Assembly (NCBI GenBank): GCA_964016885.1
Contig: OZ024743.1
Coordinates: 123,566,001 to 123,630,000, forward strand
Source of the DNA: Eledone cirrhosa
Lineage: Eukaryota
Length of the DNA: 64,000 nt
Direction: 5' to 3'
The translations under genes were made by a program, and so were the position numbers. Every line of letters begins with the position of its first letter. Position 1 is the first letter of the stretch. Below the pieces are notes generated by a model, which saw only the letters and a program-made list of their open reading frames with translations, had not been told where the DNA came from and did no database searches. This document shows positions 3,049 to 51,259 of this stretch, piece after piece.

Positions 3049-3835
3049 CTCAGAATTTGTTGTTCTTGTTCACTGATTAACGTGTTCCCATAAATATTTA
3101 CTGTGTGGGCATTGGTAAATTCTTCCGGTAGTTCTACATCAGTCATACGGTATTGTTGATGTTAGGAGGGTATTTTTGTGAATATTCTATTTTTCTTTCT
3201 TCTAGTTTTTTCTTATTCATCCATTCTAATTTCTCATTGAAATGCCTATTGCATTCGTTTCGGGCGTATTTCGTTTCACGTCGAATGACGCTCATGAGTT
3301 GATCCCTCTCGTTTGGTGTGGTGAGATTTTGAACTTCCTTACCGTTAATGCGTTTCTGTCTGTAAAGTTCGTTAACTTTTGTGTACGTTGTTCTTTTCAT
3401 ATTAGCTGTTATTGTGTGTTTTAGTCATTCAGCTTGTGTTTTGTTTAATAATAAATTATTTACTTATATGTTTGTTGTGTATATTTTGAAGGAAACACAG
3501 TGTTTTAAGAAGCGGATTTGTTCTATTGTTATTGTAGTTTTTATATAAGTTTTTATAAATGTATATACAATGATATTAAATAAATGGAAACTATATTTAT
3601 AAAACCATATTTATTTTATTATATATGTTTCAAGGGCAACCAAGACAACATTGGTACGCTTTCATCAGATAAAATACAAAGTTTGAAATATATATAATAA
3701 AATAAATATGGTTTTATAAATATAGTTTCCATTTATTTAATATCATTGAATATTTACTCCAGTAATCTGTTTAGTGCTCTAAATCAGTTATAAACATTTA
3801 TGTTTGTCGGACTTCCAACAAATTAAATACTTCTA

Positions 3836-3840
<5 letters not shown>
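3048..3840 (-). mobile_element. PLE 5' portion: inverted pLTR + HHR-bearing pLTR + degenerate ORF N-terminus
   Basis: Minus strand IEQIRFLKHCVSFKIY...RHFNEKLEWM...VNIYGNTLISEQEQQILRK resembles the PLE N-terminal region. Inverted arms ~3568-3633 and ~3683-3748. Confidence 0.65.
3612..3676 (-). ncRNA. Minimal type I hammerhead ribozyme candidate (family A)
   Basis: tattttat-CTGATGA-aagcgtaccaa..ttggttgccctt-GAAA-catata-TA-ataaaata; 8-bp stem I. Confidence 0.65.
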
Positions 3841-3917
<77 letters not shown>

Positions 3918-3923
<6 letters not shown>

Positions 3924-4322
3924 TAACAAATGGAAACTATATTTATAAAACCATATTTATTTCATTATACATATTTCAAGGGCCACCAAAGCAAACTATG
4001 GTGCGCTTTCATCAGATAAAATATAATATAGGTTAGTTTTATAAATAAATATTGACATACCCTTAAAAAATGCAACCATTCTGGTTGGAATCTCCTGGAT
4101 AGTGGAGTTATTAGATTTATTGTTGGTTTATTATGCAAATTAGCGCACCATAGTTTGCTTTGGTGGCCCTTGAAATATGTATAATGAAATAAATATGGTT
4201 TTATAAATATAGTTTCCATTTGTTAATATATTGTATATTTACTCCAATAATTTGTTGAGTGCTTTATATCAGTTATAAAAATAATTAGCTTGTTGTATCC
4301 CAACAAATTAAATATAACCTCT

Positions 4323-4330
<8 letters not shown>
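3918..4330 (-). mobile_element. Fold-back PLE terminal fragment (family A), HHR at 3958-4023
   Basis: Inverted arms ~3918-4008 and ~4142-4232. The spacer holds CTGATGA (minus) and a HNKPTINL GIY-YIG-end-like peptide. Flanked by (TA)n. Confidence 0.7.
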
Positions 4331-4401
<71 letters not shown>

Positions 4402-4408
<7 letters not shown>

Positions 4409-4482
4409 GAGAAAAGTCATCACTAGAACAGCCGTTAAAACACCTATTTGGCTGTTCTAGTGATAAGTTTTCTCATTTGTAT
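4402..4482. repeat. Short hairpin abutting (TA)n
   Basis: aaatgagaaaagtcatcactagaacagcc / ggctgttctagtgataagttttctcattt. Confidence 0.75.
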
Positions 4483-5760
4483 ATATATTCAAATACACTC
4501 TCGCTTCGTCTCAATCAGAGATAACATTATTTTTTTTCATATATGTATGTTTATAATTCCAAATAACGGGAAATACATTAGTATAAAGTATACATGATGT
4601 AGTATATGTGGTGTTATATTTTAGCTGTATGGGTATTGTAAATATTAACATGTTTCGCTTCATTTAAGCATTTACGCATCTTCTGTAACCCATCCTATTT
4701 CTCATTTAAGTATGCCTGCCCCTTACGTGACTTACTAGTTAGTCCCTAGTACATTCTCTAATCCTCTTATACAACCTCGTGCCTGTTCTTTTCTCTCAAA
4801 CACCACTGCCCTCACTAAACCTAACCACCTTCCCTTCCATATACTGGCATTTTCATTAGTCTCATCTCCTATCGAAAGTGCTCCCTCTACGACTTTTCCT
4901 TTACCGGACAAACTGACTGTCGCTTGGATGATTGACACCTTCATGACATGTCTCCGAAACGACTCTCCTGTCTCGCCTTATTTTCCCTCGATGGATTATT
5001 CCATTCGGATTCGCGTTTCACAAGGATCCCCAAACTCTGTTTTACTGCAGGAATAAAAACTCATATTATCTTCATAAATATCCACCTATTTAGTCACAAT
5101 TCCCAACTCCATTTGTTTAATTACCTTATCTCTTCACATACTAAGAGATGCATATATACATATATAGATACACGCATATATACACACACACACCAATCTT
5201 AAGCAACCTCCATACTAATAACAGTTAAATATATAGACATCAACTCATATACATTAAGCATCCTGATATACACACATTCACACTATAAAACTACATACAC
5301 AGAAAACACACCATACTCACACCCACGCAAACAATTCAGTTCTACATTTAAGGAGTCACAACCTATGTTCCATTAGCGTACGTATTTACAATAAAGACAC
5401 ACACATGCACACACTGAGTCATGGTTATATTCACATATATCACACACTTCGCGTACACATACCGTCACACAATCACTCAGTTACATACAAACACACACAC
5501 ATGCCTACGCACTTCAACACTAATATAATGAAGAGTAATACATACGCATCAAAATATCTTCACACAGAAACATCTCAGCTCATTAAACAAATTACTTTCA
5601 AACAGTCATACAGCACACACACATTAAAGTCATACCATACATGCACGCAGCCCCTAGATAACTGCGTATTTAGATATATACGTCTATACAACGTACATGT
5701 ATCTATACAATGTACACATAGACTAAATTCACCGTCACACAAATACACAAGCCCACACAT

Positions 5761-6170
5761 AATAATTGTTTCTACTTTTGGCACAAGGCCAGCAATTATC
5801 CCAGTGTATTACTGGTACTTTATTTTATCGACCCCGTAAGGATGAAAGGCAAAGTTAACCTCGGCAGGATTTGAATTCAGATCATAAAGGGCCGTAACTC
5901 TATGCTGCAACATGTAGTGCACACGCATAATAATGATTTCTATTATACGCACAAGACCAATAAAAACATTTTTTGGGGGGGAGGGGGGAGTCGATTAAAT
6001 CAACCCCAGTGTATTACTGGTACTTTATTTTATCGACCCCCGTAAAGATGACAGGCAAAGTTAACCTCGGCGGGTTTTGAACTCAGTCCGTAAAGGGACG
6101 TAACTCTGCGCTGGAAAGCTGGAAAGCATGGCGTCCGACCCTCTACCGATTTTGCCAATCCAACGCCCTA
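5761..6170 (-). mobile_element. Two adjacent SINE copies
   Basis: Reverse complement of the SINE core at ~5761-5910 and ~5930-6170. Confidence 0.85.
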
Positions 6171-6772
6171 TGGACACGTATACCAAGAGAAACAAATAAC
6201 AATGCATACATACACACACACTTACTATTCCGTAAAAAAAGTTATCTCAGCCCACGAAAAATATCCATTTTCAAACACTCATACATCACAACTCATACAC
6301 CAAGACCATAGACATTCATACACACACACAACCTTAAGACTGCTATCAACATATACATACGTTCCAACTATGGAAATATACATATAATGGACACGCACAT
6401 AAACTGATTCATAGTTACTTCCTTTGTCACTCTTACTTTAAAAGAAACTCGTTTTCCCTTTACTCCCACATCCGGTCATTTTTCAATATGACGTGAAATA
6501 TTCTATACGTGTCACTCCACTCGTCTCTTTTAATCTATTTTTCTCTCTTCATTGCTCTCATTATATCTTTCTGGAAAAAAGCTTAAGCTCGCAATTTCCA
6601 GAAATTTTCTGACTATTTACACATATTTATCGTCTCTTTCCTGTTCTTGACCTTCCCTTGTCGTAAAAGTTGTACTTTACATAGGTAAGTATTTGCGTGG
6701 TATTATCCGTCAACGAAATTAATAAACATTCGTTGTACTGCCTCTCTGTTTTGTTCCTGTTCAAATTTTTCC

Positions 6773-6844
<72 letters not shown>

Positions 6845-6949
6845 GTATATATATATATATATACGTATGCGGTTGACAGCTACATGCATGCACACACTCA
6901 CACACACGCATACATTTGAACTGGGAACGTAAAGGGTTGTAACTTCACA

Positions 6950-7063
6950 ATCTGATTTCAAAGTCCTGCTGAGAGTCGGCTTTGCCTTTCGTCCTTGCGG
7001 GGTCGATGGAGTGAAGTTCCGGTGGTGTGCTGAGGTCGATTTGGTCAACTTACCCCTCCCCTG
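6950..7063 (+). mobile_element. Diverged SINE copy
   Basis: ctttgcctttcgtccttgcggggtcgat core. Confidence 0.6.
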
Positions 7064-7081
7064 TAATAATATATATATGAA

Positions 7082-7151
<70 letters not shown>

Positions 7152-7171
7152 TTTATATATATATATATATA

Positions 7172-7241
<70 letters not shown>

Positions 7242-7261
7242 TTTATATATATATATATATA

Positions 7262-7334
<73 letters not shown>

Positions 7335-7397
7335 GGTACGTCAAAGCTATATATATATATATAAATGGGTTACATATATATATATATATATATATAT

Positions 7398-7635
7398 AAA
7401 AGGGTACGTCAAAGCTATTTGTAAAACTGTTATATATTGTATTTTGTCTGATGAAGGCATACCATAATTTAATGTGGTATCCCTGAAATATGTATAATGA
7501 AATAAATATGGTTTTATAAATATAGTTTCCATTTATTAATATCGTATATCTACTCCAAAACTTGTCGAGTGCTTTATATCAGTTATAAAAATATTTACTT
7601 GTTGTATCCCAACAATTTTAAATAGAACTTTTGCA
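7398..7635 (+). mobile_element. PLE terminal repeat (family A), HHR at 7440-7504
   Basis: tattttgt-CTGATGA-aggcataccata/tgtggtatccct-GAAA-tatgta-TA-atgaaata; flanked by (TA)n. Confidence 0.75.
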
Positions 7636-7705
<70 letters not shown>

Positions 7706-7741
7706 ATATAGAAGTAGTTCCACAACAGTTAGTTCGCCATA

Positions 7742-7782
7742 CTGAGAACAAATGTTTCACCTTATGGGGATCCTCAGCTCGG
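7742..7782 (-). ncRNA. Minimal HHR candidate (different family)
   Basis: ccgag-CTGAGGA-tccccataaggt-GAAA-catttg-TT-ctcag; stems are weak. Confidence 0.4.
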
Positions 7783-7900
7783 TTTGACTGAAGTTATACG
7801 GAGAAGGAAAAGCAACCGTACGAATACGCAAGCGCAGAAACAGTCATTTCTTCTGGGCGAGATAAACCCACGATAGATCGGTGTAAAGGAGATAACTGTA

Positions 7901-7937
<37 letters not shown>

Positions 7938-7941
<4 letters not shown>

Positions 7942-8258
7942 GCAAAGTTTTATTTAAATTGTTGGGTTACAACGAGTAAATATTTATAACTGATATAAAA
8001 GCACTCAACAAGTATTTGGAGTATATTTACGATATTAAATAAATGGAAACTATATTTATAAAACCATATTTATTTCATTATATATATTTCAGGGATACCA
8101 CATTAAATTATGGTATGCCTTCATCAGACAAAATACAATATAAACAGTCTTATAAATAGATAGAAGAAGGCATAACATATTTTTAATATGATATCCCTGA
8201 AATATATATAATGAAATAAATATGGTTTTATAAATATAGTTTCCATTTATTTAATATC

Positions 8259-11673: not shown

Positions 11674-11985
11674 ATATATTACCCGCCTTAGAATATATAT
11701 ATATTGTTTTAATATAGATGAGATTCTACAGGACTAGAACTGTTTCATTCTTTAGAAATCATCATATATATATATATATATAACTATGTACACGTACATA
11801 GATATATGTATACAGACGTACAGTAGTATGTATATATATATACATACATGCACACATATATATATGTACGTATGGATTCACCGAACATTTATTATAATAC
11901 TCGGTGTGTTTGTAAACAAACATCCCGTATTAAGCCGTAGTGTCCAGCAACCATCGTTGCTCGTTTGTTCAACACTGACAAAGGA

Positions 11986-12028
11986 ACGCTGTACTAGTTT
12001 CAAGCTTATTAGCTATCGTCAGCAACGT
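11986..12028 (-). ncRNA. Minimal type I hammerhead ribozyme
   Basis: acgttg-CTGACGA-t agct aata agct t-GAAA-ctag-TA-cagcgt; 6-bp stem I, palindromic stem III ACTAGT. Confidence 0.8.
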
Positions 12029-12403
12029 ATACCTTCCTGCCAGATTGTTGAACGTATATACTTACCTTATGCATATTAACGGCTGAGAAGCCCAATTTGC
12101 ATATCGAATGGGTTCATCGGCCGGGTGCACCGAAAACTATAAACGGAAAAAATGAAACGAAATTTCATTTCCCACTCTTAGTACGGCTGTTACTTAAATA
12201 TAAGTATGTACACGTACATACATATATGTATACAGACGTACAGTAGTATGTATATATATACATACATGCACACATATATATATGTACGTATGGATTCACC
12301 GAACATTTATTATAATACTCGGTGTGTTTGTAAACAAACATCCCGTATTAAGCCGTAGTGTCCAGCAACCATCGTTGCTCGTTTGTTCAACACTGACAAA
12401 GGA

Positions 12404-12446
12404 ACGCTGTACTAGTTTCAAGCTTATTAGCTATCGTCAGCAACGT
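12404..12446 (-). ncRNA. Minimal type I hammerhead ribozyme (second unit)
   Basis: Identical to 11986-12028, 418 bp away. Confidence 0.8.
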
Positions 12447-12810
12447 ATACCTTCCTGCCAGATTGTTGAACGTATATACTTACCTTATGCATATTAACGG
12501 CTGAGAAGCCCAATTTGCATATCGAATGGGTTCATCGGCCGGGTGCACCGAAAACTATAAACGGAAAAAATGAAACGAAATTTCATTTCCCACTCTTAGT
12601 ACGGCTGTTACTTAAATATAAGTATGTACACGTACATACATATATGTATACAGACGTACAGTAGTATGTATATATATACATACATGCACACATATATATA
12701 TGTACGTATGGATTCACCGAACATTTATTATAATGCTCGGTGTGTTTGTAAACAAACATCCCGTATTAAGCCGTAGTGTACAGCAACCATCGTTGCTCGT
12801 TTGTTCAAAA

Positions 12811-24033: not shown

Positions 24034-24123
24034 TAGATAAATATATATAGGCAGACAGGCAGATAGATAGATTGATAGTTAGATAGATAAATAGACAGAC
24101 AGACATATATATATATATATTTT

Positions 24124-24213
24124 ATTAATAGTTTTATTTTCATATACCTGTATGTAAACTCCCCATTTGTATTTGTACCCTTCTTTTGTGCCCTTGTGGC
24201 TAATAAAGAAATT

Positions 24214-24300
<87 letters not shown>

Positions 24301-24663
24301 TTCTTTATTAGCCACAAGGGCACAAAAGAAGGGTACAAATACAAATGGGGAGTTTACATACAGGTATATGAAAATAAAACTATTAATACAATAACAAATA
24401 ACAATTGAAATCCCCAATAGGGGGGAGGTGTTACACAGGGGTTGTACACACCCCGAAAAAATATACAACCCTCATCTCCAGGAGCACCAAGAGTGAGTAC
24501 TCCCTTCCTCTCTTCCTCTTTTTCCTCAACTTACAGGCTTATATAGAGAGAAGGCCCAACCACTCGGGCCATCTTTGCCACATTCACCCACCTTTTATAA
24601 AATTTGCTGGGGTACAGCACCCACCTCTCTCTTCATCCTGACACTTCTTCCAAAATGATATTT
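24124..24663 (-). mobile_element. Tx1 3' fragment (24297-24663) with an inverted copy of its last ~90 bp (24124-24214)
   Basis: Minus strand encodes RWVNVAKMARVVGPSLYISL and the 3' end cttgtggctaataaagaaat; the two ends meet across (CT)n(TA)n(AG)n. Confidence 0.85.
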
Positions 24664-25309
24664 ATAGATACCGGTAGAAACGAAAGGTTCCAACGCGTCA
24701 GAAATACATACGTAATTTAATTGCATTGTAAATTGTGTAAATATTCCACACATTTTCTTGTAGTATATTTGAGACCCGTTCTTCCTATTTAATGTACATA
24801 GATAAGCGGTCATAGTTCCGATATCCTTTTAAAGCGTTGTACACTTCGAATCTGTGATTAAATATCACAAGTAGATCAACTAAGATTGTATAGTCTAGGT
24901 GCATATGTCTTCAATGTAACTCTTCGCATGTATTCAAGTGCCGCAATTGTTATATCTTTTCTTTTTTTCACAATCTTTCTGCGACAGGTATTATTTCTTG
25001 TTGATATATAAAGTAACCATTTCGTTCCTTTGTCCATTCCAGATTGATCTCCATACCAAACAGCTGAGGTGTCAATAACTGCCATACTTGTATGGTGAAA
25101 CGAATAATTATCTTTAGTTCAACAGCAGCTGAGGAGGAGAATAAACCCCCCAAACATCTAGCTGAACCACGAGCTACTTGCAATCAATAATGCATATGTC
25201 CTTTGCGTGGTATATCTGAGTTTCATTTTTTCTGGGTTTGTTTAATTATCAAAGGTATAAAGCCATAGCACATTCTTAAATTCTCAATGATTAAATATAT
25301 CGTTTAGAT

Positions 25310-32163: not shown

Positions 32164-32709
32164 TCAGAAATGACTGCATGGGTGGAACATGTTGTAGATA
32201 GTCAATAGCTTCCTAGTCTTCCTATCCATTTCTTTTTGTTCAGCAACATTCCATCTCAGAATTCCCGCACTGTACCTAATAATAGACACAGCTCGGGAAT
32301 TTACTGCGCTTATGGCATTTCTGCTGTTCAGATGTGACTTCAATACGCTCCTTACTCTCCGAATGTATTCAGATCTTATCAATTCCTTCATTTTTTTGTT
32401 CTTGGTGTCATCAGCCTCCAGAACACCCAAATACTTGTATCCTTCTTCAGTATCAATTTCCTTTATCATCTCACCTGTTGGTACCTGGATTCCGTTGCTT
32501 CTGCTCAATTTACCCCTCTTCATCACAAGGACTCCACACTTACTAATACCAAATTGCATACATATATCATTGCTGAAAATACGGACAGTGTCAACAAGCA
32601 CATCCAACTCATTCTCACTCTTCCCGACGAGCTTAAGATCGTCCATGAAGAGGAGATGATTGATGGTAAGCTCTCCCTTTCCCAACTTGTATCCTGCTCT
32701 CACTTTTCG

Positions 32710-32710
<1 letters not shown>
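32164..32710 (-). mobile_element. R4/Dong-like LINE RT fragment starting at an (AAT)n tract
   Basis: INHLLFMDDLKL, MQFGISKC, YKYLGVLE, DRKTRKLLT. Confidence 0.85.
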
Positions 32711-32767
<57 letters not shown>

Positions 32768-32984
32768 GAATGCTATGGTTGACGGAGGCTCGGCTCTGTA
32801 AGGTATTGTAAATTTTGACCGCTATAACAATTGTAAATTGTTTAAAACTTTAACCAACTTGTAGACAAAAACACCCTCCTCCTCGTGAGAGGGGTTTTTC
32901 TGCCCGTTATTTGACCTTTCGGGGTTAAATAACTGCTTATTGGGGTTTTGTGCCCAATATTTATTTTAAACAAAAAAAAACAAC

Positions 32985-34962
32985 ATGGCTACGAAAAAGA
33001 ATTTTCATAGGTCACTCCCACTCATTCCGTCTTCTTCTTCCTCAATTGTCACTACAGCAGAGAGAAGATTGTCTCTCTCCCTCCCTTCTTTAAATGTGTC
33101 TCTCCCCCCCCCCCTTCTCTTTCGCAAGCGACGACAGAAAAGAAAAGTCTCGTGCAAAGCGTGCAAGATTTCTCCACGACGACGACGGCAACAACGAAAC
33201 AGGTGTGCGGGAAATACGAAAACCCATTTCATTCGTCTGACGTCAGGAATAATAGCAGTAGCAGCCGTAATAACAACAGCAACAGTGACAATGAAAACAA
33301 CAGTAGCAGCCGCAACAGCATCAGCAGCAGCATAAACAACAACAGCATTATCAGCAGCAACAACAACAACAACCACAGCAACAGCGGCGGCGGCAGTAGT
33401 CGTAGTACCTGCAGCAACAACAAAAGTAACAGCAGCTCTGACGACAACAACAACAACAACAACAGCAAAGAAAAACCAATCTCGTTTGCAGGTATCGCGA
33501 AGAACCTGGAAACCATCCTCATAACAAATGAGAAATTAGAGGAAGCGAAGAAAATGGTGACAAAAACTGGACACCGAGCAATTTGCAAGGCAGCGGAAAA
33601 TTTTTTCGAAACCCAACAGCACTGTACGGTCACGTACCGTACAGTAAGTACAAAATCCCGTAGGGTTGAAAGAGCGACAGAGGCTCAAATACAAAAAGCC
33701 TTGGGGTCTGTGTGGCAGCGGAAAACGCACATCACCCGAGGCAAGAAATATGCCACCGTAGACGTACTTTTTGCCACACCCCAGGAGGCAAAGGCTCAAT
33801 CCTTAGTGACCCTAAGGAGCGAGGAAATGGTGTTGGTGCCCTCCTACTGCGGGCAAAACATTGTGAGGGTCAAACTGACCCACGCCCCCCCCCCCCCCCC
33901 CCCCCCCCCGGGATGGCCCCTTCTTGGCTGACCGCGTCTGTCCTCGTCGGAATCGAGGACAAAACAACTGTACTGCAAGTACAGAAAAAAGTAAGAGAAG
34001 ATTGGATCGGCACCTCCATTGAGATGTTAATCCAAACCAACCAGGAGTGCATCGAAGCTATTCCGGATGTGATAGACTTCGATAACGGCACTCAACTGCC
34101 CATAAGTATTGAGGGCAAACGCCCGAAATGCTTTTGCTGTGGATCGAAGACTCACCTCAGGGCCTTCTGCAACGAGAAGACCCTGAGAAAGGAGAAAACC
34201 CCCCTCCTTCCGAAACCGGCTCCACGGCTACCAGCAACAGGACAAGCGGCAACCAGGAACGATAGGTCCGTGGCACCCATACCCACGCCACGGAAATCAA
34301 AAACAGCAGCAGCAGTGGAAGTATTAACAACAACAACAGCAATACCAAATGCAGCTGCAACAGAGACTCCAGTGCAAACATCACCAACAACAAGTGAAAG
34401 AGTGGAGCTGGTACCCCTCCCCGACCTCACAGAATCAGACATGGAGTGTGAGGTGGGAGGGGGATGGCAAAAGGTCGTAAGAAGGCACAAACGCAGAAGT
34501 AGCGCATCGTCGCCTTTGAAAAGGGAGGAAAGAAATGAAAAAAGGGTAAAGTCTACTGCAAAGAGACTCACAGCAGCAACACCACCAACACCATCACAAC
34601 CCACACTAGCACCACCATCACCACCGGCGACAACCCCACCGCCAACAATACATTCAACACCACCACCACAAGCACCAACATCGCAAACACAACAACAAAA
34701 CACACACACCCAGCAACAACGACAAGAAAATAGCAGAACCACACGGCACCCCCAGAAAAACAAATGCACGGCAATAAATACACACAAGAAACTAATGACT
34801 TACATAATTGAACACACATACATTTCACAACACGACTACATAATACCAGCAACAATCAAAACGCCAACTAACATAAGACTGCTAAAAATAGCACAGAAAC
34901 AATACACAAACATTAAAACGAAATTCCCCAACGCAGTTGGTGATTTCAGAGACCAAGGGTAA
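32985..34962 (+). CDS. Tx1 ORF1 (gag-like, CCHC zinc knuckle), two frameshifts at C homopolymers
   Basis: Joined from ORFs 32985, 33152 and 33712; CFCCGSKTHLRAFC = CX2CX4HX4C; GGGWQKVVRRHKRR basic motif. Confidence 0.75.
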
Positions 34963-35137
34963 CTATCAACCGAAGAGTATATTCGGACATATTCATAGAA
35001 GAGCCGACGACCAGCCGAAGGGATGATTCAACGGTCCCTTCACCAGACGATCAAGTGAAAAGGGACGGAAAAACCATCCCTCCTCTACGAAAAGTACGGT
35101 AAGTGGTCTTTCCCATCTTTTCCACTCTATTTTAAAC

Positions 35138-38100
35138 ATGACCTCACTCAGAATAGGCAGCATAAATGCGCGTGGCTTGGGGTCGTCATGGAAGCAGGGT
35201 CACCTGCTCAACGCCCTCAGGTCACTAAACATAGATGTAGTGGCCATCAGCGAGACCAGAATCTCCAAAGCACGGGCCTTCGCATCGATCTTTGGCGGCT
35301 ACGATGTGTACGCATCTCCCAGCCGTCCTGGATCGGGGGGAGGAGTTGCTGTGCTTTTTCGGAGAGGTTTGGATCTCGCCATACGGGCCATCTTCCTGGA
35401 CCCAGAGGGTAAGCTGGTGGTGCTGGACGTGACCAGCGGAGACGAGCAAGCTTTCAGGCTAGTGGCCGTCTATGCCCCGACAGGAGCAGGGCGGCCTGAT
35501 TTCTTCCGGCGTCTGGAGACCTTTCTTGGAACGTCCCGCTCTTTAGTGTTAGTGGGCGACTGGAACGGGATCTTAGATGCACGCTGGGACTGTGTGGGAT
35601 TAGCGGATAGGGGTGGAGGGTGCAAGAGCCTCACCAACCTGCTCAGGCGTTTTGAACTGTCTGACAGGTACCGATTGGATTTCCCGAATGTGCCAATGTG
35701 GACTTGGACAAATCGTATAGGGTCATACAGATCATATCTAGATAGAGTATTTTGTAGGGAAATAGATAGGTCTAGCATAGGCTGTCCACAATTCAAGATA
35801 GTCAGCTACACGGACCACAAATTCGTGATCTGTGTGCTTGACTTAGATAGGCTTCATAGACGAGGACCCGGCTACTGGAAGCTAAACGCGTCCTTACCAG
35901 CGCGCAAGGCCTACAGAGACCCGATTAGCGAACTAGTTAAGCGGGCGTTGACGGGGGCCATCGTCAACAACAAGTGGTGGTTTGCTCTGAAAAGAGCGAT
36001 TAGAATAGAATCGATTAGGCTTAGTAAGGCTTTAGCAATAGAGAAAAATAGAGCAGAGGGAGAACTAGTTAGAAAATTAGACGAGGCGCTTAGCAAAGGC
36101 ATTGCGACCGACGTGCTTGCGGCGAAATTGGCCCTTAACCAATTCTTCAATGCAGAGCACGAAGGTTGCGTTGTCAGAGCAAGGGTGCGTGCTCTCAGAC
36201 ACGAGGGGACGAAAGCCGTTCAATGGGCCCGAGTGGCGGAGGCGCGTCGTGGCAACAAAGCCACGATCCGGTCTTTGGTGGACCACGACGGGCGCATGCT
36301 ACTCGATCCCGGGCAAATGTGTGAAGCTTTTCAGCGACACTTCGCTCAACTGTTCGGGGGCAGTGGTGGGCCGGGTCGAGGGATGGACTTTAGTGTCTAC
36401 CTCGACGGACTGCCGCGGCTCTCGGCCACTGAGGCGAGGTGTTGCGAAAAGCCGATAACAGCCGCTGAAGTAAGGGAGGCAATGACTGGCTGCACAAGGG
36501 GTAAATCGCCTGGTTTGGATGGTCTGCCCTATGAACTTTACGTACAGATGCTAGACTTGTTCGGAGGCCTCTTGGCAGACGTCTACTGCAACTGGCAAAA
36601 GAACGGGAGAATTCCCAGTTCTGTGAGCCGAGGAGCGGTGGCACTGCTGAGAAAGGATCCGAACAAGGGGGATAACATAGATAATTTCCGGCCCATAACT
36701 CTGCTAAACACAGAGTTCAAGATTTTGGCCAAGGTGCTAGCAAAGAGGTTGGCGCTTGTCATTGGTGGTCTGGTGGGAGAGGCGCAGACATGCGCCATTC
36801 CCGACAGATCCATCCACGACAACCTCCACCTAATGCGATACATCGTAGACAGGGTAGCTAGGAAACCTGGCACGGGTGGGTCCTTGATCAATTTAGATCA
36901 GTCGAAAGCTTTCGATAGGGTCGACCATCGTTACCTAGCGGCAGTCCTGAGGGCGGCTGGCTTTGGACCCGTCTTCAGAGGCTGGATCGCTGCCATGCAC
37001 AGCGACATCTGCTCTGTGGTGAGAGTGAACGGTCACCTGTCGGAACCGTTCAACATCATGCGCTCGGTCTTCCAAGGATGTTCCCTCTCGTCCCTCTTGT
37101 ACGTATTGACTCTCGAGCCATTACTGCACAAACTGGAGACGTTGAGGGGCGTCCCGCGCGAACTAGGATGCGGAAGATCCGCGTCAGCATATGTGGACGA
37201 TGTCACCGTAGTGGTGTCGAACGCCAAACACATCGAGGCGATCGGCACTACACTAAGAGAATACGAAGCGGTGACAGGAGCAATGATCAACCAGGAAAAG
37301 TCAGTCGGCCTGCAGCTCGGCACCTGGAGAGGCAGGCGATGCCGTCCAACAGCGTCGTCGGACGCTGGACGGACGGACCGGTTAAATTGCTAGGGGTCAG
37401 GTTCGGTCCGGACCTCCAGACGGACAAAAACTGGGACGAGGTGACGAGCAGGGTGGCTTCTCTCACCCAGAAATGGGCGGAGAGGAAGCTATCCCTGAAA
37501 GGTCGAGCGGAGGTGGCTAACGCGTACATCGCGTCTGTCATCTGCTACCGCCTGACCGTCGTACTTTGTCCTAAGCCTCGCCTGACTGCGCTGGAGCGTT
37601 TGCTCTTTCGCTTTTTGTGGAAGGGCCGCGCTCCGATGGTCAGGCGGTCCATCTGTTGTCAACACCCGCTACGTGGGGGGGATGGGCATGCCGTGGCTGA
37701 TGATGCGCAGGCACGCGCTCAGGCTACGACATCTCCACCTCTTCCTCGACGGTGATCAGGTGTGGTCGCCGTTTGCTAGACACGTATTTCCCCAGCTCGT
37801 TTCCTTGACGGAGCTGCAGTCCTGGGTCAAGCGAAGACCGAGAGGGGGCGCCTGGAGACTGGAATGTCTTCAGGCGCTCACAGCCCTCGACCAATCGGGC
37901 AATGTGATCGGTGGAAACTCCACCTCGGCGTTCTATAGAGGATTAGTGGAGGGGAAGAGCGACGACGGACTTGGGGAAACTCTAGGCGTCGACGAAAATC
38001 AACTAGCCAATCTCTACGGAAGAACTTTCGGGCCAGGGCCTATGGACAACTTCCAGAAATCTCTGGCCTGGCAGTGCTACCGAGGAGCCTTGCCAGTTCG

Positions 38101-38557
38101 GGATAAACTCTACAGGCATGGAGGTGCCGTCAACCGGGCATGTCCGAGATGCGCGCAGGGCGACGAAACCGTCCTGCACGCACTTGTCCAGTGTCCGAAA
38201 ATTACTGACTTGTGGGTTTATGTCGAACACCTGCTGTCGCGTGTAGGACGGATCCGGCTATCATCTGAGTCCATCGTGAGGATTGCCCCGCCCTCTTCCT
38301 TTAGCCAGGAAGGGCAGGCAGTTTTTATCTGTCTGGTGGCCATGGCGAAAGAGATAGTATGGTGGACACGTTTGAAAGGACTGAAGACGAGCACTTACCT
38401 CTTCGGTGATGCCCTGATTGACTTTTTCAAATTTCATTTGAAAAGGAAAATCAGAGTAGAGAGGGAAGTGCTCTCTTCCCAGCATTTTGTTGAAAGATGG
38501 GTGAGAGAAGCAAGAATGGCCCGAGTGAATGGGCCTACTCTGTGTATATATCTGTAA
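35138..38557 (+). CDS. Tx1 ORF2 (APE endonuclease + RT + C-terminal zinc finger), two frameshifts
   Basis: SINARGL, SET, VYAP, GDWN, SYLDRVF, TDH; GKSPGLDGLP, NFRPITLLN, DQSKAFDRVDH, QGCSLS, YVDD; CPRC...ETVLHALVQC. Frameshifts near 37335 and 37680. Confidence 0.92.
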
Positions 38558-38850
38558 ATTAAAGGTGGAAAACTGGGAGAGGGCACTTGCCTTGGTGGTC
38601 AGGGTCACTGTGACCTTTTACTGGGCTTTCTCCACAAATGTCCCTCCGAAGTCTCCCCCCTATTGGGGAATTTTTCATTGTTATTTTTTGTTACAGCCTC
38701 TGTTTTTGTTTTTTACACGCAGAAATGCCCATTTGTACCGTCCTGTATTGTCCTGCACTGTCCTTAATGTCTACTTTATGTAAACCCTTGTGGTTAATAA
38801 AGAAATCATTATTATTATTATTATTATTATTATTACTGAGAGGTTCCTCC

Positions 38851-39062
38851 TCAAACACTACTTCCAGCGGGTCCTGTCAGAAGCAACCGTCTCCAACTGA
38901 TCTGGCTGGATCCCCAAACGTGACCAGCCAAGCTCATAGATGATATCCAACCATCTTCCTCGGTGTCTACCCTTCGGTCTCCTGGCGATTGGTTTTGCCC
39001 GTAAAATCCGTCCAGCGGTTCTTTCCTGAAGCATTCTAACCACATGTCCATAGTATATTTGC
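38851..39062 (-). pseudogene. RTE LINE C-terminal fragment
   Basis: YYGHVVRM...RRPKGRHRGRWLD...DRTRWK. Confidence 0.75.
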
Positions 39063-42230: not shown

Positions 42231-43050
<820 letters not shown>

Positions 43051-44086: not shown

Positions 44087-44088
<2 letters not shown>

Positions 44089-46440
44089 TTCTTTATTAGC
44101 CACAAGGGCGCAACAAGAAAGGGGACAATACAAAGACATGCCGGGGATTTTACATACAGTCGTGTAAAAAATATAAAAACAAACAATTTCAACAATCGAA
44201 ATCCCCAATAGGGGGGAGGCGCCACAAATGGGTTGTTTAATACCCCGTCGATAGAACAACCCTCAACTCAAGGAGCGTGTTGTGCAAGTGCTCCTTTCTT
44301 CCTTTTGCTCTCTTCCTCAACCTACAGGCTTATAAACAGAGAAGGCCCAATCACTCGGGCCATTTTCGCTTCATTCACCCACCTTTCAGTAAATTTACTG
44401 GGGTGCAGTGCCTCTCTCTCCACCCTGATTCTCCTTCTAAAGTGATACTTAAAGAATGGAATCAATTGTTGTCCGGAGAGAAAGGCATCTGTCCTCAGTC
44501 CTCTCAACCTCGTCCACCATATAACTTCTTTCACCATAGCCACCGTACAGAGGAAAACCGCCTCTCTTTCGTTTTTGAAAGAGTCTGGCGGTTTGATCCT
44601 TACTATGGACTCGGCAGTCAACTGTATTTGTCCCATACGCGACAGCAGTTGTTCTGCATAGTTCCACAGGTCGCTTACGCCCGGGCAGTGTACAATTGCG
44701 TGCAGAACTGTTTCAATGTCCTGCGCACATCTTGGACACGTCCTCTTGGAAGGATCCCTGCCAGGGCGTCCGTGCCTGTAGATCTTGTCACGAACCGGTA
44801 GAGCTCCTCGGTAGCACTGCCAGGCCAGGGACCTCTGGAAGTTGTCCATAGGTCCCGGGCGGAAAGTCCTACCAAACATACTGGTGAGCTCATCGTCTTC
44901 GACGCCCAGAGTCTCTCCGAGCACGTCGTCGCCCTTGTAACGTACAATCCCTCTATAGAATGTCGAAGTGGAGTCTCCACTGATTGCTGCGCCCGCTTGC
45001 CAGAGGACTGTGAGCGCCTGAGCGCATTCAATGTGCCAGGCGCCCATCGTTTTCGGTCTTTTCTTCACCCAGGACTGCAGCTCCGTTAGCGAGACGAGCT
45101 GTGGGAAAGCCTGTCTCACAAACGGTGCCCACACCGGTTGGGGGTCGGTGAGGAATACCTGGAGATGCCGCAGCCTCAGCGCATGTTTGCGCATCATCAG
45201 CCACGGCATTCCCAGCCCTCCGTTGGAAGGGTGCTGACAGCAGACGGATCTCCTCACCAGCGGAGCCTGCTTCTTCCACAGAAACTGGAAGAGCATGCGT
45301 TCCATCTTGGCGAGGTGTTCACGGGGACAAGGCACGACAGTCAAGCGGTAGTAGATGACGGACGCTATGAAAGTGTTCGCCACCTCCGCTCGACCTTTCA
45401 AGGACAGTTTGCACTCTGCCCACTTCTGAGTGAGTGCAAACACCTTGGCCGTGACCTCGTTCCAGTTTTTCTCCACCTGGAGGTCTGGACCGAACCAGAC
45501 CCCGAGCAATTTCACCGGTCCGTCCGTCCAGCGTCCAACGACGCTGTCGGATGTCATCGGTTTGCCTCTCCACGTACCGAGTTGCAAACCGACAGACTTG
45601 TCTGGGTTTAGTTTTGCTCCCGTCAGCGTTTCGTATTCTTTCAGTATGTTGCCGATCACCCCGATTTCCGAGGTGCTCGACACCATTACTGTCACGTCGT
45701 CGGCATAAGCCGACGCCGCTTTGCGCAGTCCCGGTTCTAGGGGGATGCCCTGCAACAGCTCCAATTTCCGCAGTAGTGGCTCTAGAGTCAATACATACAG
45801 AATGGAGGAGAGAGGGCATCCCTGTCGAATGGAACGCGTGATTGCGAACGGCTCCGATAGGTAGCCGTTCACCTTGACCCTCGAGCAGATGCTGGTGTGC
45901 ATCGCCTCGATCCATCCTCTGAACACGGGACCGAAACCGGCCGCCTTGAGAACCGCTTCCAAGTATCGATGGTCGACCCTATCGAATGCCTTAGACTGAT
46001 CCAAGTTGATCAGAGCCGGGTTTACTACCGAAGCCGGGTTTACTACCCACCCTCTCTATGATGTATCGCATGAGGTGGAGGTTGTCGTGTATGGACCTGG
46101 TCGGGATTGCACACGTTTGCGCTTTCCCTACCAGGTTCTCGACGACAAGCGCCAACCTCGTCGCGAGCACCTTGGCCAAAATCTTTAACTCTGTGTTGAG
46201 CAGAGTTATGGGCCTGAAGTTGTTAATTTCGTCCCCCTTGTTCTCGTCTTTCCTGATCAGCGTTACTACGCCCTTGCCTGCAGAACTGGGAATTCTCCCG
46301 TTCTGCTGCCAATTGCAGTAGACGGCTTCGAGGACGCCAGAGAACAAGTCCGGCATGCCTATGTAAAATTCGTAGGGTAGACCATCTAGACCGGGTGACT
46401 TGCGTTTCCCGCAGCGGCCCAGAGCGTCCCGTATCTCAGT
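44087..46440 (-). mobile_element. Tx1 LINE copy E1, 5'-truncated, in (GATA)n
   Basis: RT to C-terminus (QGCPLS, YADD, CPRC); a small duplication near 46020 causes a frameshift; (GATA)n on both sides. Confidence 0.93.
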
Positions 46441-46520
<80 letters not shown>

Positions 46521-49347
46521 TGTTTCTTTTATTTGCCACCAGGGCATCAAAAGTGGGACAAGTACAATGGGGGAGATTTACAAAACAAGGCGTCCTCAAT
46601 AAGGGGGAGGCAATAACAATATATAAAAATAAAATAAAATATAACAAAAAATAAAATTTATAACAAAGTCCTCAATAGAGAGGAGGCGCCTTGGGGGGTC
46701 GCGCACACCCCCGAAAAAAGTGTGCAACCCTTCTCCTCAGGAGCACAGAGAAGGGGTGCTCCCTTGGTCTTTGATCTTCCTCACCTATAGTCTGATGTAG
46801 AGTGAAGGCCCATTCACACGGGCCATTCTCGCCACTTTCACCCATCTTTCATAGAAACGGCTGGGGGGCAGCACCTCTCTCTCCATCCTGATCCTTCTTC
46901 CGAAATGATATCGGAAGAAACGGACCAGTTGTTGGCCAGAGAGAAAGGTGTCTGACCTCAGTCCTTTCAGACGCGTCCACCATACAACCTCTTTCGCCAT
47001 GGCTATTACGCACAGAAACACCGCCTCTCCTTCGTTTTTGAAGAGGGGAGGCGGCTTGATCGTTACAATAGACTCGGTGGTCAACCGGATCGGTCCCACC
47101 CTTGACAGCAGTTGTTCGACATAGCCCCACAGATCGGCAATGCCCGAGCAGTGTACCAATGCGTGTGCAACGGTTTCCTCGTCGCACACGCATCTGGGAC
47201 AGACCTTTTTTGATGGCTCCCTACCCGGGCGCCCGTGTCTGTAGAGCCTTTCTCGAACGGGCAGAGCCCTTCTGTAGCATTGCCAGGCCAGGGACCTCTG
47301 GAAGTTATCCATGGGTCCCGGGCTGAATGTCCTACCGAACAGGTTGGCCAGTTCGTCTTCCTCCATGCCTAGGGCTTCTCCGAGGGCGTCGTCGCACCTG
47401 CTAACCACCAGCCCTCTATAGAATGACGAGGTGGATTCTCCACTGACAGCCGGGTCCGCCTGCCAGAGAGCCGTGAGCGCCTGGGCACACTCGGTGTGCC
47501 AGGCGCCCAGTTTTCTCGGTCTTTGCTTGACCCAGGATTGCAGCTCGGTGAGTGAGACGAGTCTGGGAAAGGCTCGCCTCACAAACGGGGCCCACACCGG
47601 TTGACCGGAGAGGAATACCTGAAGGTGCCGTAGCCTTAATGCGTGTTTACGTATCATCAGCCAGGGCATCCCCAGCCCTCCTTTCGAAGGGTGTTGACAG
47701 CAGATGGATCTCCTCACCATAGGAGCCCGCTTCTTCCAAAGGAATTGGAAGAGTGCGCGCTCCATTTTGGTGAGCGTTTCCCTTGGGCAAGGCACCACGG
47801 TCAGGCGGTAGTAGATGACGGACGCTATATAAGTGTTCGCCACCTCCGCCCGACCTTTCAGGGACAGTTTGCACTCGGCCCACTTCTGGGTCAGTGCAAA
47901 CACCCTGCTCGTCACCTCACCCCAGTTCTTCTCCACCTGGAGGTCTGGTCCGAACCAGACCCCGAGCAATTTCACCGGGCCCTCCGTCCAGCGCCCGACG
48001 ACGCCATCGGAGGGCATCGATCTGCCCCTCCACGTGCCGAGTTGCAGACCGATCGACTTGTCCCGGTTCAGCTTAGCCCCTGTAAACCTTTCGTACTCCT
48101 CCAGTAAGGTGCCGATCGCCCCGATTTCCGAGGCCGTCGACACCATTACTGTTACGTCATCGGCGTAGGCTGACACCGCTTTCCGCAATCCCGGTTCCAA
48201 CGGGATGCCCTGCAACAACTCCAATTTCCGCAGCAGTGGCTCTAGAGTCACTACATACAGAAGGGAGGAGAGAGGGCACCCCTGTCGGATGGACCGCGCG
48301 ATTTCGAACGGCTCCGAGAGGTAGCCGTTCACCTTGACCCTAGAGCAGATGCGGCTGCTGTGCATGGCATTGATCCAGCCCCTGAAAACGGGTCCGAAGC
48401 CTGCCGCCGCTAGCACCAGGTAACCATGGTCGACCCTATCGAATGCCTTAGATTGATCCAAGTTGATCAGGGCCCCACCAAAGCTGGGTTCGTTCCCAAC
48501 CCTCTCTATGATGTATCGCATGGGGTAGAGGTTATCGTGGATGGACCTGGACGGGATAGCACATGTCTGCGCATCTCCCACCAGGTTGCCCACGACAAGC
48601 GCCAACCTCTTTGTTAGCACCTTGGCCAAAATCTGTAACTCTGTATTTAGCAGAGTTATGGGCCTGACATTATTTATATCGTCCCCCTTGTTATCGTCCT
48701 TCCTCACTAGCGTGACTACGCCCTTGGTCACAGCACAGGGAATTCTCCCGTTCTGTCGCCAGTTGCAGTAGACCGCCTCGAGGAGTTCGGGGAACAAGTC
48801 CGGCATAGCTAGATATAGTTCGTATGGAAGACCATCGAGACCCGGGGATTTGCGTTTGCCGCATTGGCTCAGAACGTCCTCTATCTCAGCGGCTGAAATC
48901 GGCTCCTCGCAGGACTTCGCCTCCCTGTCCGAGAGACGCGGCAGGCCGTCGAGGTATGGACCGAAGTCCACGTCCCCAACCGGCACCCCGCCCCTTCCGA
49001 ACAATTCGGCAAAGTGCTTTTGAAAAGCCTCGCACATCTGCTTAGGTTCAAGGATCACCCGTCCATCCTGGTCTCGCAAAGACCGGATAGTGGATCTGCT
49101 CCCTCTTTTGGCTTCTGTCACGCGGACCCAGCTAACAGCTTTGGTCCCCTCGTTTCCCAGAGCACGTATTTTGCTTCGGACGATGCAGCCTTCGTGTTTC
49201 GCGTCGAAGAACTGGCCCAGGGCCGTTCTCGACGCTAGCACTCTGGCCACGTCGCCGCTTCTAATTGCCTCTTCTACACTATCTACCAATTCCCTTTCCT
49301 TCCTATTTCTATTGGAGGCTAACTCCTTACTAAATTCTATAGAGACT

Positions 49348-49349
<2 letters not shown>
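46521..49349 (-). mobile_element. Tx1 LINE copy E2, 5'-truncated, in (GATA)n
   Basis: Uninterrupted 834-aa ORF 46785-49289 with complete RT and zinc finger. Confidence 0.93.
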
Positions 49350-49403
<54 letters not shown>

Positions 49404-49404
<1 letters not shown>

Positions 49405-50270
49405 TTTTTTATTTACCATAAAGGCATAAAAAGAAGGGACAAATACAAAGGGGGAGTTTACATACAATCGAGTAAAAAGGGTATAAAATGAAAATAATCG
49501 AAAACAACCTCAAAAGGGAGGGGACGTGATGGGGGTTGCACACACCCCCGAAAAAGTGTGCAATCCTTTGCCCGGGGAGCACATGGAGAAGGTGCTGCCT
49601 TCTCCTTCACTTCTTTACCTACAGGATGGTATACAGAGAAGGCCCATTTACACGAGCCATTCTCGGCACTATCACCCACCTTTCATAAAACTGCCTGTGG
49701 CCAAGCACCTCTCTCTCCATTCTTATCCTTCTTCCGAAGTGATATCGGAAGAAGTAGACCAGACTATGGCCAGAGAGGAAGTTGCCTGACCTCAGACCTT
49801 TCAATCGTGTCCACCAAACAACCTCTTTCAACATGGCTATTACGCACAGAAAAACCGCCTTTGCTTCCTTTGTGAAGAGGGGAGGCGGTTTGATTGTCAT
49901 CACGGACTCGTCGGTCAATTGAATCGGCGCCACCCGCGACAGCAGTCGTTCGGCGTAGCCCCACAGATCAGCCACGCCCGGACATTGCACCAATGCGTGC
50001 GCAACGGTTTCTTCGTGACGCACGCATCTATGGCAAATCTTTTTCGAGGGATCCCTGCCCGGGCGCCCGTGTCTGTAGAGCCTCTCTCGAACGGGTAGAG
50101 CCCCCCGGTAGCACTGCCAGGCTAGTGACTTCTGGAAGTTGTCCATTGGTCCCGGGCCGAAAGTCCTACCGAACAGGCTGGCCAGTTCGTCCTCTTCCAT
50201 GTCCAGCGACTCTCCAAGGGTGTCATCGCCCCTGCTAGCCACCAGCCCTCTATAGAATGATGAGGTGGTT
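49404..50270 (-). mobile_element. Tx1 LINE copy E3, 5'-truncated, in (GATA)n
   Basis: ORF2 C-terminus (MDNFQKSLAWQCYRGALPV, CHRC) plus 3'UTR. Confidence 0.92.
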
Positions 50271-50332
<62 letters not shown>

Positions 50333-50333
50333 T

Positions 50334-50830
50334 ATTTCTTTATTAGCCACAGGGGCACAAAAGAAGGGGACAAATACAAAGGGGGAAGTTTACATACAAT
50401 AAAAACGTGTAAAATGTTATCACAGATGGAATTTAAAAGTTAGTCGATTTTCCCCAATAGAGGGAGACAGTTTATATGGGTAACACAGACCCCCGAAAAA
50501 AATGTGCAACCCTCATCTCCAGGAGTACGAAGAGCTTGTACTCCTTTCCTCTCCTCCTCCTTTTCCTCAACCTACAGGCTGATATAGAGAGAAGGCCCAT
50601 TCACTCGGGCCATTCTCGCCACTTTCACCCACCTTTCATAAAACTTGCTGGGGTACAGCACCTCTCTCTCCATCCTGATTCTTCTTCCAAAGTGGTATTT
50701 GAAAAAAAGAATCAGTTGTTGGCCGGAGAGAAAGGTGTCTGACCTCAGCCCTTTCAACCTTGTCCACCATACAACCTCTTTCGCCATAGCTATCACACAA
50801 AGGAAAACCGCCTCTCCTTGGTTTTTGAAG
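50334..50830 (-). mobile_element. Tx1 LINE copy E4, 5'-truncated, in (GATA)n
   Basis: Last ~85 aa of ORF2 plus 3'UTR; short gatagatagatag at 50831. Confidence 0.9.
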
Positions 50831-51259
50831 GATAGATAGATAGTTGACATACACACATAACCTTCAAATGCCACATTTTACTCATTCAGAAGATAAGAAA
50901 TTTAATACAAAGGTGTTCAATAAATAATTTAACAACGGCTATGTGTAAAGTAGAAGAAAAATTGAAGAAGCATCAATATACGAATTAAAGTTAATATATG
51001 TGTTTTTCCTTTACTCCATTATATATAGTATATTACATTATAATATTAATGGGACAGCCAATAAGGCAATATTTTTGTCAATTGAGCTAGTTATTATTGC
51101 AAAAGCGAACTTCACCGCCCTATTACAAAAGAGTTGTACTCTAACATAATTACGCAATATGGAGCGTTGCAAAATGCACCAAGTAAAAAATTTTAACTCT
51201 AATGGCCGTTTTTATTGTAGTTTGTGTGAATAAATTTCTTTAATATACAGTTAGAAAAT

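What the first reader, a model, noticed from the sequence alone, without database searches (positions are those of the whole stretch)
32768..38835. Full-length Tx1 in (ATT)n, related to the (GATA)n-associated copies: candidate target switch
Seen: ORF2 is clearly homologous to E1-E4 and shares the terminal cttgtggYtaataaagaaat, but the flanks are (ATT)n on both sides. It is the only copy here that retains the endonuclease. Inference: closely related subfamilies differ in microsatellite specificity, so APE loop or 3' tail comparison could reveal what determines the target.
Basis: partly seen in the sequence, partly recalled or inferred. Interest (0 to 1): 0.7.

Follow-up and report, generated by a model that had tools for sequence, protein, structure and literature searches.

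The report
LINE inserted in ATT microsatellite
This is a full-length but broken jumping gene (a LINE retrotransposon, likely of the Tx1 group and likely from an octopod) sitting inside an ATT repeat while four distant relatives nearby sit in a GATA repeat, which likely reflects sister families preferring different microsatellites, a habit already described in fish and crocodilians and here resting on one ATT copy.

Summary
32768-38807 is a 6,040-bp LINE with ORF1, an APE-RT-zinc-finger ORF2 and (ATT)19 / (ATT)9 flanks. It is the only copy in the window with an endonuclease, but both ORFs are frameshifted. E1-E4 are not its copies, nor one family: they are four 5'-truncated insertions (73-86% nt to each other, 68-75% to it) nested head to tail in one (ATCT)n tract. 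E2-E4 form a separate branch (100/98). Argonauta proteins lie close to each side, so the split looks old. The (ATT)n tract likely predates the insertion: it joins an RTE-like 3' end and an R4/Dong-like fragment, and makes up 0.16% of the window's other DNA. So targeting is likely. But whether motif tracks family could not be tested: there is one ATT copy, no genome was held, and the read tool did not show other copies' flanks. A fifth GATA-branch relative is followed by (TC)n. Microsatellite-targeting Tx1 sisters with different motifs are known (Kibi, Koshi, crocodilian families); ATT and ATCT were not among the Tx1 targets in the passages I read. Verdict: new member of a known kind.

The parts
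32768..38807 (+). Full-length, decayed L1-group (Tx1-type) LINE, 6,040 bp
   Evidence: colinear Logan contigs in other runs
32711..32767 (+). 5' flank, (ATT)19, perfect
38808..38835 (+). 3' flank, (ATT)9.3, perfect; no poly(A) after the AATAAA near the element end
32985..34962 (+). ORF1, broken into at least three frames (one break at the C25 run 33885-33909); N/S-rich stretch, likely RNA-binding region, one CX2CX4HX4C knuckle, P/T/Q-rich tail
   Evidence: Atlas leads to zf-CCHC / ZCCHC3-RBD clusters at 0.82-0.88, lead only; no Pfam hit above cut-off
35138..38557 (+). ORF2, about 1,141 aa read through two frameshifts: APE endonuclease, RT, zf-RVT
   Evidence: Pfam PF03372 E 8.7e-15, PF00078 E 3.1e-26, PF13966 E 1.3e-8
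35138..35860 (+). APE endonuclease domain with residues matching L1 EN N14, E43, Y115, D145, N147, D205, H230 (L1 numbering recalled); hairpin loop TWTNRIGSYRS, same length as L1's
   Evidence: alignment to L1 EN/ORF2p chains in the PDB, E 1.4e-6 to 4e-5
38558..38807 (+). 3' UTR ending GGTTAATAAAGAAATC; 67-75% like the 3' UTRs of E1-E5 over aligned positions
32167..32710 (-). 5'-truncated RT fragment abutting the repeat; R4/Dong-like by recalled motif (INHLLFMDDLKL), not tested against a reference
   Evidence: weak RVT_1 hit, below cut-off
38836..39061 (-). 3' end of a LINE, RTE-like by recalled C-terminal motif (YGHVVRM...RPKGR.RGRW.D), running into (TAA)n: the likely source of the tract
   Evidence: no Pfam hit
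50334..50831 (-). E1, 5'-truncated relative; about 3 ATCT units 5', (ATCT)15 3'
49403..50270 (-). E2, 5'-truncated relative between (ATCT)n tracts
46522..49348 (-). E3, 5'-truncated relative (starts at ORF2 residue ~291, open RT and zf-RVT) between (ATCT)n tracts
44088..46440 (-). E4, 5'-truncated relative; (ATCT)20 5', 260-bp degenerate (ATCT)/(CT) tract 3'
24300..24669 (-). E5, short 3' fragment of the E1-E4 branch followed by (TC)21(TA)14(GA)8, an inverted copy of its own end, then degenerate ATCT

Best explanation
This is a full-length, frameshifted APE-type LINE of the L1 group (likely Tx1 clade, likely in an octopod) that likely inserted by target-primed reverse transcription into an already existing (ATT)n tract, because its family likely prefers that repeat, while a long-separated sister branch (E1-E4) is repeatedly inserted in (ATCT)n. 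Shown: the structure, the flanks, the nest of four different relatives in one (ATCT)n tract in one orientation, and the separate branches. Inferred from L1/Tx1 biochemistry: the APE would nick the strand reading (AAT)n, or (AGAT)n for the sister branch, plausibly at a T-A step as L1 EN does; the freed 3' end would prime on the RNA end just after AAUAAAGAAA, with 1-3 variable junction bases and no poly(A); repeat is left on both sides, hiding any target-site duplication. Inferred and untested: that the motif difference is set by the endonuclease, possibly helped by pairing of the RNA 3' end with the target.
For: Repeat on both sides in one phase. The tract lies between two other LINE ends on the opposite strand, so it has an origin independent of this element. 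AAT-class repeat is 2 tracts, 84 bp, 0.16% of other DNA, against 65 (AT)n tracts, 2,506 bp. All 7 perfect AGAT-class tracts lie in the E1-E4 nest. E1-E4 differ from each other by 14-27% in coding DNA and have different 5' breakpoints, so they are four separate insertions in one tract and one orientation. E2-E4 branch 100/98; the ATT element with P0001, P0002, P0115 branches 98/99. APE catalytic residues intact. P0003 (Argonauta; 79% to E4 versus 68% to the ATT element in the RT N-part) has a different hairpin loop, TWSTKNGKSRS, and 47% identity in the APE C-half, against 73% for P0002. Precedent: Kibi (TC)n, Koshi (TTC)n, crocodilian (TTCC)n/(TTTC)n families are phylogenetic neighbours (PMC4494074, passages and section 15).
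Against: One ATT copy only. No flank of any other copy was seen: no genome held, the read tool skipped the 3' repeat junction, the metagenome scan gave 2 of 2 unrelated chance matches, and four related-loci scans gave none. The four ATCT insertions share one locus. E5 is in the GATA branch (nearest E1) yet is directly followed by (TC)21. The loop also varies inside the ATT-side branch (P0002 has TWANNSGTSRS), P0003's own flank is unknown, and its place with E3/E4 is unresolved in the tree. Grafting the Tx1L loop onto L1 EN did not transfer Tx1L specificity (PMC1950540, passages), so a loop difference need not be the cause. No tree with named Tx1 references could be built.
Confidence: 0.6

Rival explanations
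1. No real switch: both branches share a loose preference for A/T-rich microsatellites (for example a T-A step on the purine-rich strand, common to AAT and AGAT), and which motif a copy sits in depends on what is locally available; the E1-E4 nest simply re-uses one tract.
For: One ATT copy and one ATCT locus; E5 of the GATA branch is followed by (TC)n. The ATT element's last bases read GAAATC, like E4's GAAATCT junction. L1 EN reads DNA structure more than sequence (PMC1950540, passages).
Against: (AT)n, also rich in T-A steps, is about 30 times more abundant than AAT-class repeat here, yet none of the six copies has (AT)n at a junction. Beyond E5's inverted duplicate lies a degenerate ATCT tract (7 ATCT words in 150 nt), and E4's tract also decays into (CT)n, so E5 may have been an ATCT insertion.
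Confidence: 0.25
2. The ATT-side family is not sequence-specific (an L1-like liking for A/T-rich DNA); this copy landed in a tract that is an open, tolerated hot spot already hit by two other LINEs.
For: Single copy. The family is abundant along its whole length in two public runs (55,621 and 60,177 contigs laid), so some copies will fall in repeats. Its hairpin loop has L1's length. Two other LINE ends meet at the tract.
Against: The prior chance of hitting an AAT tract is about 0.16%, and any perfect microsatellite under 10% (4,230 bp in the window). Its closest relatives in the window are plainly repeat-associated.
Confidence: 0.12
3. The (ATT)n and (ATCT)n tracts are tails made by the elements themselves, like the repeat tails of RTE LINEs, not targets.
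For: Some LINE clades end in short repeats (PMC3747384, passages and Table 3). In the nest, each 5' flank could be the upstream neighbour's tail.
Against: The ATT element has 19 units on its 5' side with no Tx1-type neighbour there, and E1, the outermost, has about 3 ATCT units at its truncated 5' end.
Confidence: 0.03

Closest known systems
Kibi (TC)n, Koshi (TTC)n and crocodilian Tx1 families in (TTCC)n/(TTTC)n (PMC4494074, passages and section 15; PMC3812793, passages)
   Same: APE-type LINEs inserted in microsatellites; neighbouring families with different repeat units.
   Different: Motifs here are (ATT)n and (ATCT)n, not in the lists I read; host is likely an octopod; relationship to Kibi/Koshi not tested because no reference sequences were available.
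L1-Tx1 families of Octopus vulgaris (80 families, 56.3 Mb; 13 recently active; PMC13282606, passages and one supplement row)
   Same: Same element class is abundant in octopods; the nearest named proteins are from Argonauta hians.
   Different: The main text has no occurrence of 'target', so no target analysis was seen; whether this family is among the 80 is unknown.
Dong (R4 clade), targeting (TAA)n (PMC3812793, passage)
   Same: Same microsatellite class; a Dong-like fragment abuts this very tract.
   Different: R4-clade elements encode a restriction-like endonuclease (PMC4640811, passage), and the fragment reads TAA in its own sense; this APE element lies in the opposite orientation.
Human L1 ORF2p / L1 EN
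   Same: APE-RT-Cys-rich layout, catalytic residues and hairpin loop length.
   Different: Weak similarity (E about 1e-6); no poly(A) tail here; ORF1 with a CCHC knuckle; repeat-associated insertion.

Membership tests
APE-type non-LTR retrotransposon, L1 group | ORF2 with N-terminal APE, RT and C-terminal cysteine-rich domain | tested here: met
   PF03372, PF00078, PF13966 above cut-off; the best 9 PDB matches are L1 EN/ORF2p or its loop chimeras
APE-type non-LTR retrotransposon, L1 group | 5'-truncated copies sharing one 3' end, no terminal repeats | tested here: met
   E1-E5 share the 3' end with varied 5' breakpoints; self-BLAST of the element shows no LTR pair
Tx1 clade | RT phylogeny groups with Tx1L/Keno/Kibi/Koshi rather than L1 proper | not testable with these tools
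   No named Tx1 reference among the hits or the cluster look-ups
Tx1 clade | ORF1 with RNA-binding region and CCHC knuckle (feature recalled) | tested here: inconclusive
   CX2CX4HX4C motif is in the sequence; Atlas scores 0.82-0.88 are leads only; no Pfam hit above cut-off
Microsatellite-specific Tx1 family (Kibi/Koshi type) | More than 20% of a family's copies flanked by one target type (criterion in PMC4494074, passage) | not testable with these tools
   1 of 1 copy for the ATT family; 4 of 5 fragments (one locus) for the GATA branch; no outside flanks seen
Microsatellite-specific Tx1 family (Kibi/Koshi type) | Same repeat at both junctions, fixed orientation | tested here: met
   ATT element and E1-E4; not met for E5's 3' side
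Microsatellite-specific Tx1 family (Kibi/Koshi type) | Endonuclease nicks the target repeat selectively | not testable with these tools
   Needs a nicking assay
Active element | Intact ORF1 and ORF2 | tested here: not met
   Frameshifts in both; contigs of other copies lack the break near 37337 and differ from this copy at conserved RT motifs

The most novel reading that the evidence does not exclude
Octopod genomes carry two abundant sister LINE branches, split before the Argonauta lineage separated, one strictly targeting (ATT)n and the other (ATCT)n: two targets not listed for Tx1 elements in what I read. Their endonucleases are about 50% identical with different hairpin loops, giving a natural pair in which to map how an APE endonuclease tells one microsatellite from another.
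Probability: 0.4. Interest if true: 0.5.

Novelty: new member of a known kind. Interest (0 to 1): 0.3.

Why it matters
How APE-type LINEs pick microsatellite targets is described as not well understood (PMC3812793, passage). A pair of related, abundant families with different repeat targets would allow endonuclease swaps between near relatives, a cleaner test than the L1/Tx1L loop grafts that failed to transfer specificity (PMC1950540). It would also help explain how octopod microsatellites grow into LINE nests. The phenomenon itself, sister Tx1 families on different microsatellites, is already in print, so the gain is new motifs and a new host group, not a new mechanism.

Tried and rejected
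No whole genome is held. Laying four runs: X14 does not hold the element (11 low-complexity reads); X8, X1 and X11 do, but rows at the 3' repeat junction were skipped, so flanks were not shown. The counts of contigs running over the ends of the stretch (83, 72, 1) cannot be assigned to one end, so I draw nothing from them. Summed depth is no copy number. The terminal-motif scan found 0 viral stretches and 2 metagenome stretches, both without any LINE similarity. Related-loci scans of GTDB genomes and viral contigs found no relative. No named Tx1 protein turned up. The Dong-like fragment had no PDB match and the RTE-like fragment no Pfam match, so both labels are recalled. The ATT element's 3' UTR folds no better than shuffles (z 0.31). 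My first pair count used a mis-set structure string and is void; one search is the valid one. A profile search found no further copy of these branches in the window beyond the six and E5's duplicate. Rejected: that E1-E4 are one family or a tandem duplication (73-86% identity, different breakpoints); that the element is active as it stands. No earlier scan note covers this sequence or genome.

Full report
What is there. The stretch 32768-38807 (+) is a 6,040-bp LINE between perfect (ATT)19 and (ATT)9.3 tracts. It has a 217-nt 5' UTR, an ORF1 from 32985 that falls into at least three frames, and an ORF2 from 35138 to 38557 with APE, RT and zf-RVT domains above Pfam cut-offs. ORF2 reads as about 1,141 aa through two frameshifts. 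The APE aligns with L1 EN structures (E 1.4e-6 to 4e-5) and keeps the catalytic residues; its hairpin loop TWTNRIGSYRS has L1's length (L1 numbering recalled). The 250-nt 3' UTR ends GGTTAATAAAGAAATC with no poly(A). The nearest named proteins are from Argonauta hians (58% and, to E3, 62%), so the host is likely an octopod. Contigs from three public runs cover the element from its 5' end; 55,621 and 60,177 contigs were laid in two of them, and pieces of the third span 32777-38794 with few differences. The family is therefore abundant, and this copy carries lesions that other copies lack.

The relatives. Four 5'-truncated fragments lie head to tail on the minus strand at 50831-44088, each followed by (ATCT)n in element sense, that is (GATA)n on the plus strand. 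They are 73-86% identical to each other in coding DNA and 68-75% to the ATT element; protein identity to it is 64% (86 aa), 61% (212), 68% (846) and 70% (697) for E1-E4. They are thus four separate insertions by different families into one tract, in one orientation, which is good evidence of targeting for that branch, though from a single locus. In a tree of 15 of the 23 proteins I had aligned (E1 dropped by the program as too short), E2-E4 form a branch at 100/98 and the ATT element sits with P0001, P0114, P0116 (77-82% identical) and Argonauta P0115 at weak support (74/94). On residues 291-620 (11 rows) the ATT element, P0001, P0002 and P0115 group at 98/99, while E3, E4 and Argonauta P0003 are unresolved at the base. 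With Argonauta proteins near both sides, the split looks old, and the root does not give a direction. The flanks of all these outside proteins are unknown.

Is the (ATT)n a target? On the minus strand the tract is where the 3' end of an RTE-like fragment (39061-38836) meets the truncated 5' end of an R4/Dong-like RT fragment (32710-32167) (both labels recalled from motifs, unconfirmed). Dong elements target (TAA)n (PMC3812793, passage), and plant RTE families end in short repeats (PMC3747384, passages and Table 3). So the tract likely existed first. Perfect AAT-class repeat is 84 of 51,044 bases outside these LINE bodies (0.16%); both of the window's 2 tracts are this element's flanks, all 7 AGAT-class tracts are in the E1-E4 nest, and the 65 (AT)n tracts (2,506 bp) hold no junction of the six copies. 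This is post hoc and insertion can lengthen tracts, but chance is unlikely.

Against a clean switch. There is one ATT copy. E5 (24669-24300), nearest to E1 (79%), is directly followed by (TC)21; a degenerate ATCT tract lies just beyond an inverted duplicate of its end, so it may be a rearranged ATCT insertion, but as it stands the GATA branch is 4 of 5. All attempts to see other copies' flanks failed: no genome, rows at the 3' repeat skipped, 2 of 2 metagenome matches unrelated, and no relatives in four scans.

Mechanism. From established L1/Tx1 biochemistry, the APE would nick the strand reading (AAT)n or (AGAT)n and the RT would prime on the RNA end after AAUAAAGAAA; the junctions show 1-3 variable bases there. 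Both targets offer a T-A step on a purine-rich strand, which fits an L1-like nick and also leaves room for a shared loose preference. As a proxy for the GATA-branch APE, P0003 (79% to E4, 68% to the ATT element in the RT N-part) is 47% identical to the ATT element over the APE C-half (49 of 105) against 73% (77 of 105) for P0002, and has the loop TWSTKNGKSRS. But P0002's loop also differs (TWANNSGTSRS), and grafting the Tx1L loop onto L1 EN did not transfer its specificity (PMC1950540, passages), so the loop is a lead, not an answer. The 3' UTRs of E1-E5 share three hairpins (92% of cells paired, 7 double-sided changes, 0 of 500 shuffles as high; the structure was derived from the same five sequences); by eye only the last is present in the ATT element, whose UTR folds no better than shuffles. 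These hairpins more likely serve RNA recognition than target choice (inference).

Comparison with what is known. Target-specific LINEs are concentrated in the early-branched, Tx1 and R1 groups (PMC4640811, passages). Kibi inserts in (TC)n, Koshi in (TTC)n, and eight neighbouring crocodilian families in (TTCC)n or (TTTC)n (PMC4494074, passages and section 15; supplements not readable). So motif shifts among related microsatellite-targeting Tx1 families are known. L1-Tx1 is abundant in coleoids (PMC8967140, passages; PMC13282606, passages and one supplement row), with no target analysis seen. Searches (listings only, apart from the papers named) showed no report of ATT- or GATA-targeting Tx1 families in cephalopods; Repbase and Kojima and Fujiwara 2004 were out of reach. 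Tx1 membership rests on architecture and behaviour, not on a tree with named references. An earlier scan note on a (TTTC)n-flanked Tx1-like LINE in another genome reached the same kind of verdict; I did not test it.

Verdict. Observation confirmed; interpretation partly supported and untested at family level. New member of a known kind, with two possibly unlisted targets. Interest 0.3; 0.5 if strict tracking is shown genome-wide.

Noticed in passing
window 24121-24400: E5's 3' end, (TC)21(TA)14(GA)8 and a near-identical inverted copy of its last ~90 nt form a hairpin of about 280 nt; a fold-back rearrangement or an assembly artefact.
   Followed up: partly
window 32167-32710 and 38836-39061: One (ATT)n/(TAA)n tract carries three LINE types: an RTE-like 3' end, an R4/Dong-like truncated fragment, and this element in the opposite orientation (clade labels recalled).
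   Followed up: partly
window 44088-50831 (3' UTRs of E1-E4) and 24300-24530: Three conserved RNA hairpins with double-sided changes in the 3' UTRs of the GATA branch.
   Followed up: partly
protein P0228 (Patella caerulea): A distant relative (33% over the APE) has 11 cluster members at locus tags SNE40_003393-003415 with one contig length, suggesting a tandem and perhaps target-specific array.
   Followed up: no
window 11778-12808 and 42583-43025: A 418-bp unit repeated 2.5 times at 99% match, and a 223-bp unit repeated twice at 81%.
   Followed up: no
window 3588-8242: Short motifs AAACCATATTTATA and ATAAATATAGTTTT recur seven times beside (TA)n tracts, suggesting a small dispersed repeat or an old tandem unit.
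   Followed up: no
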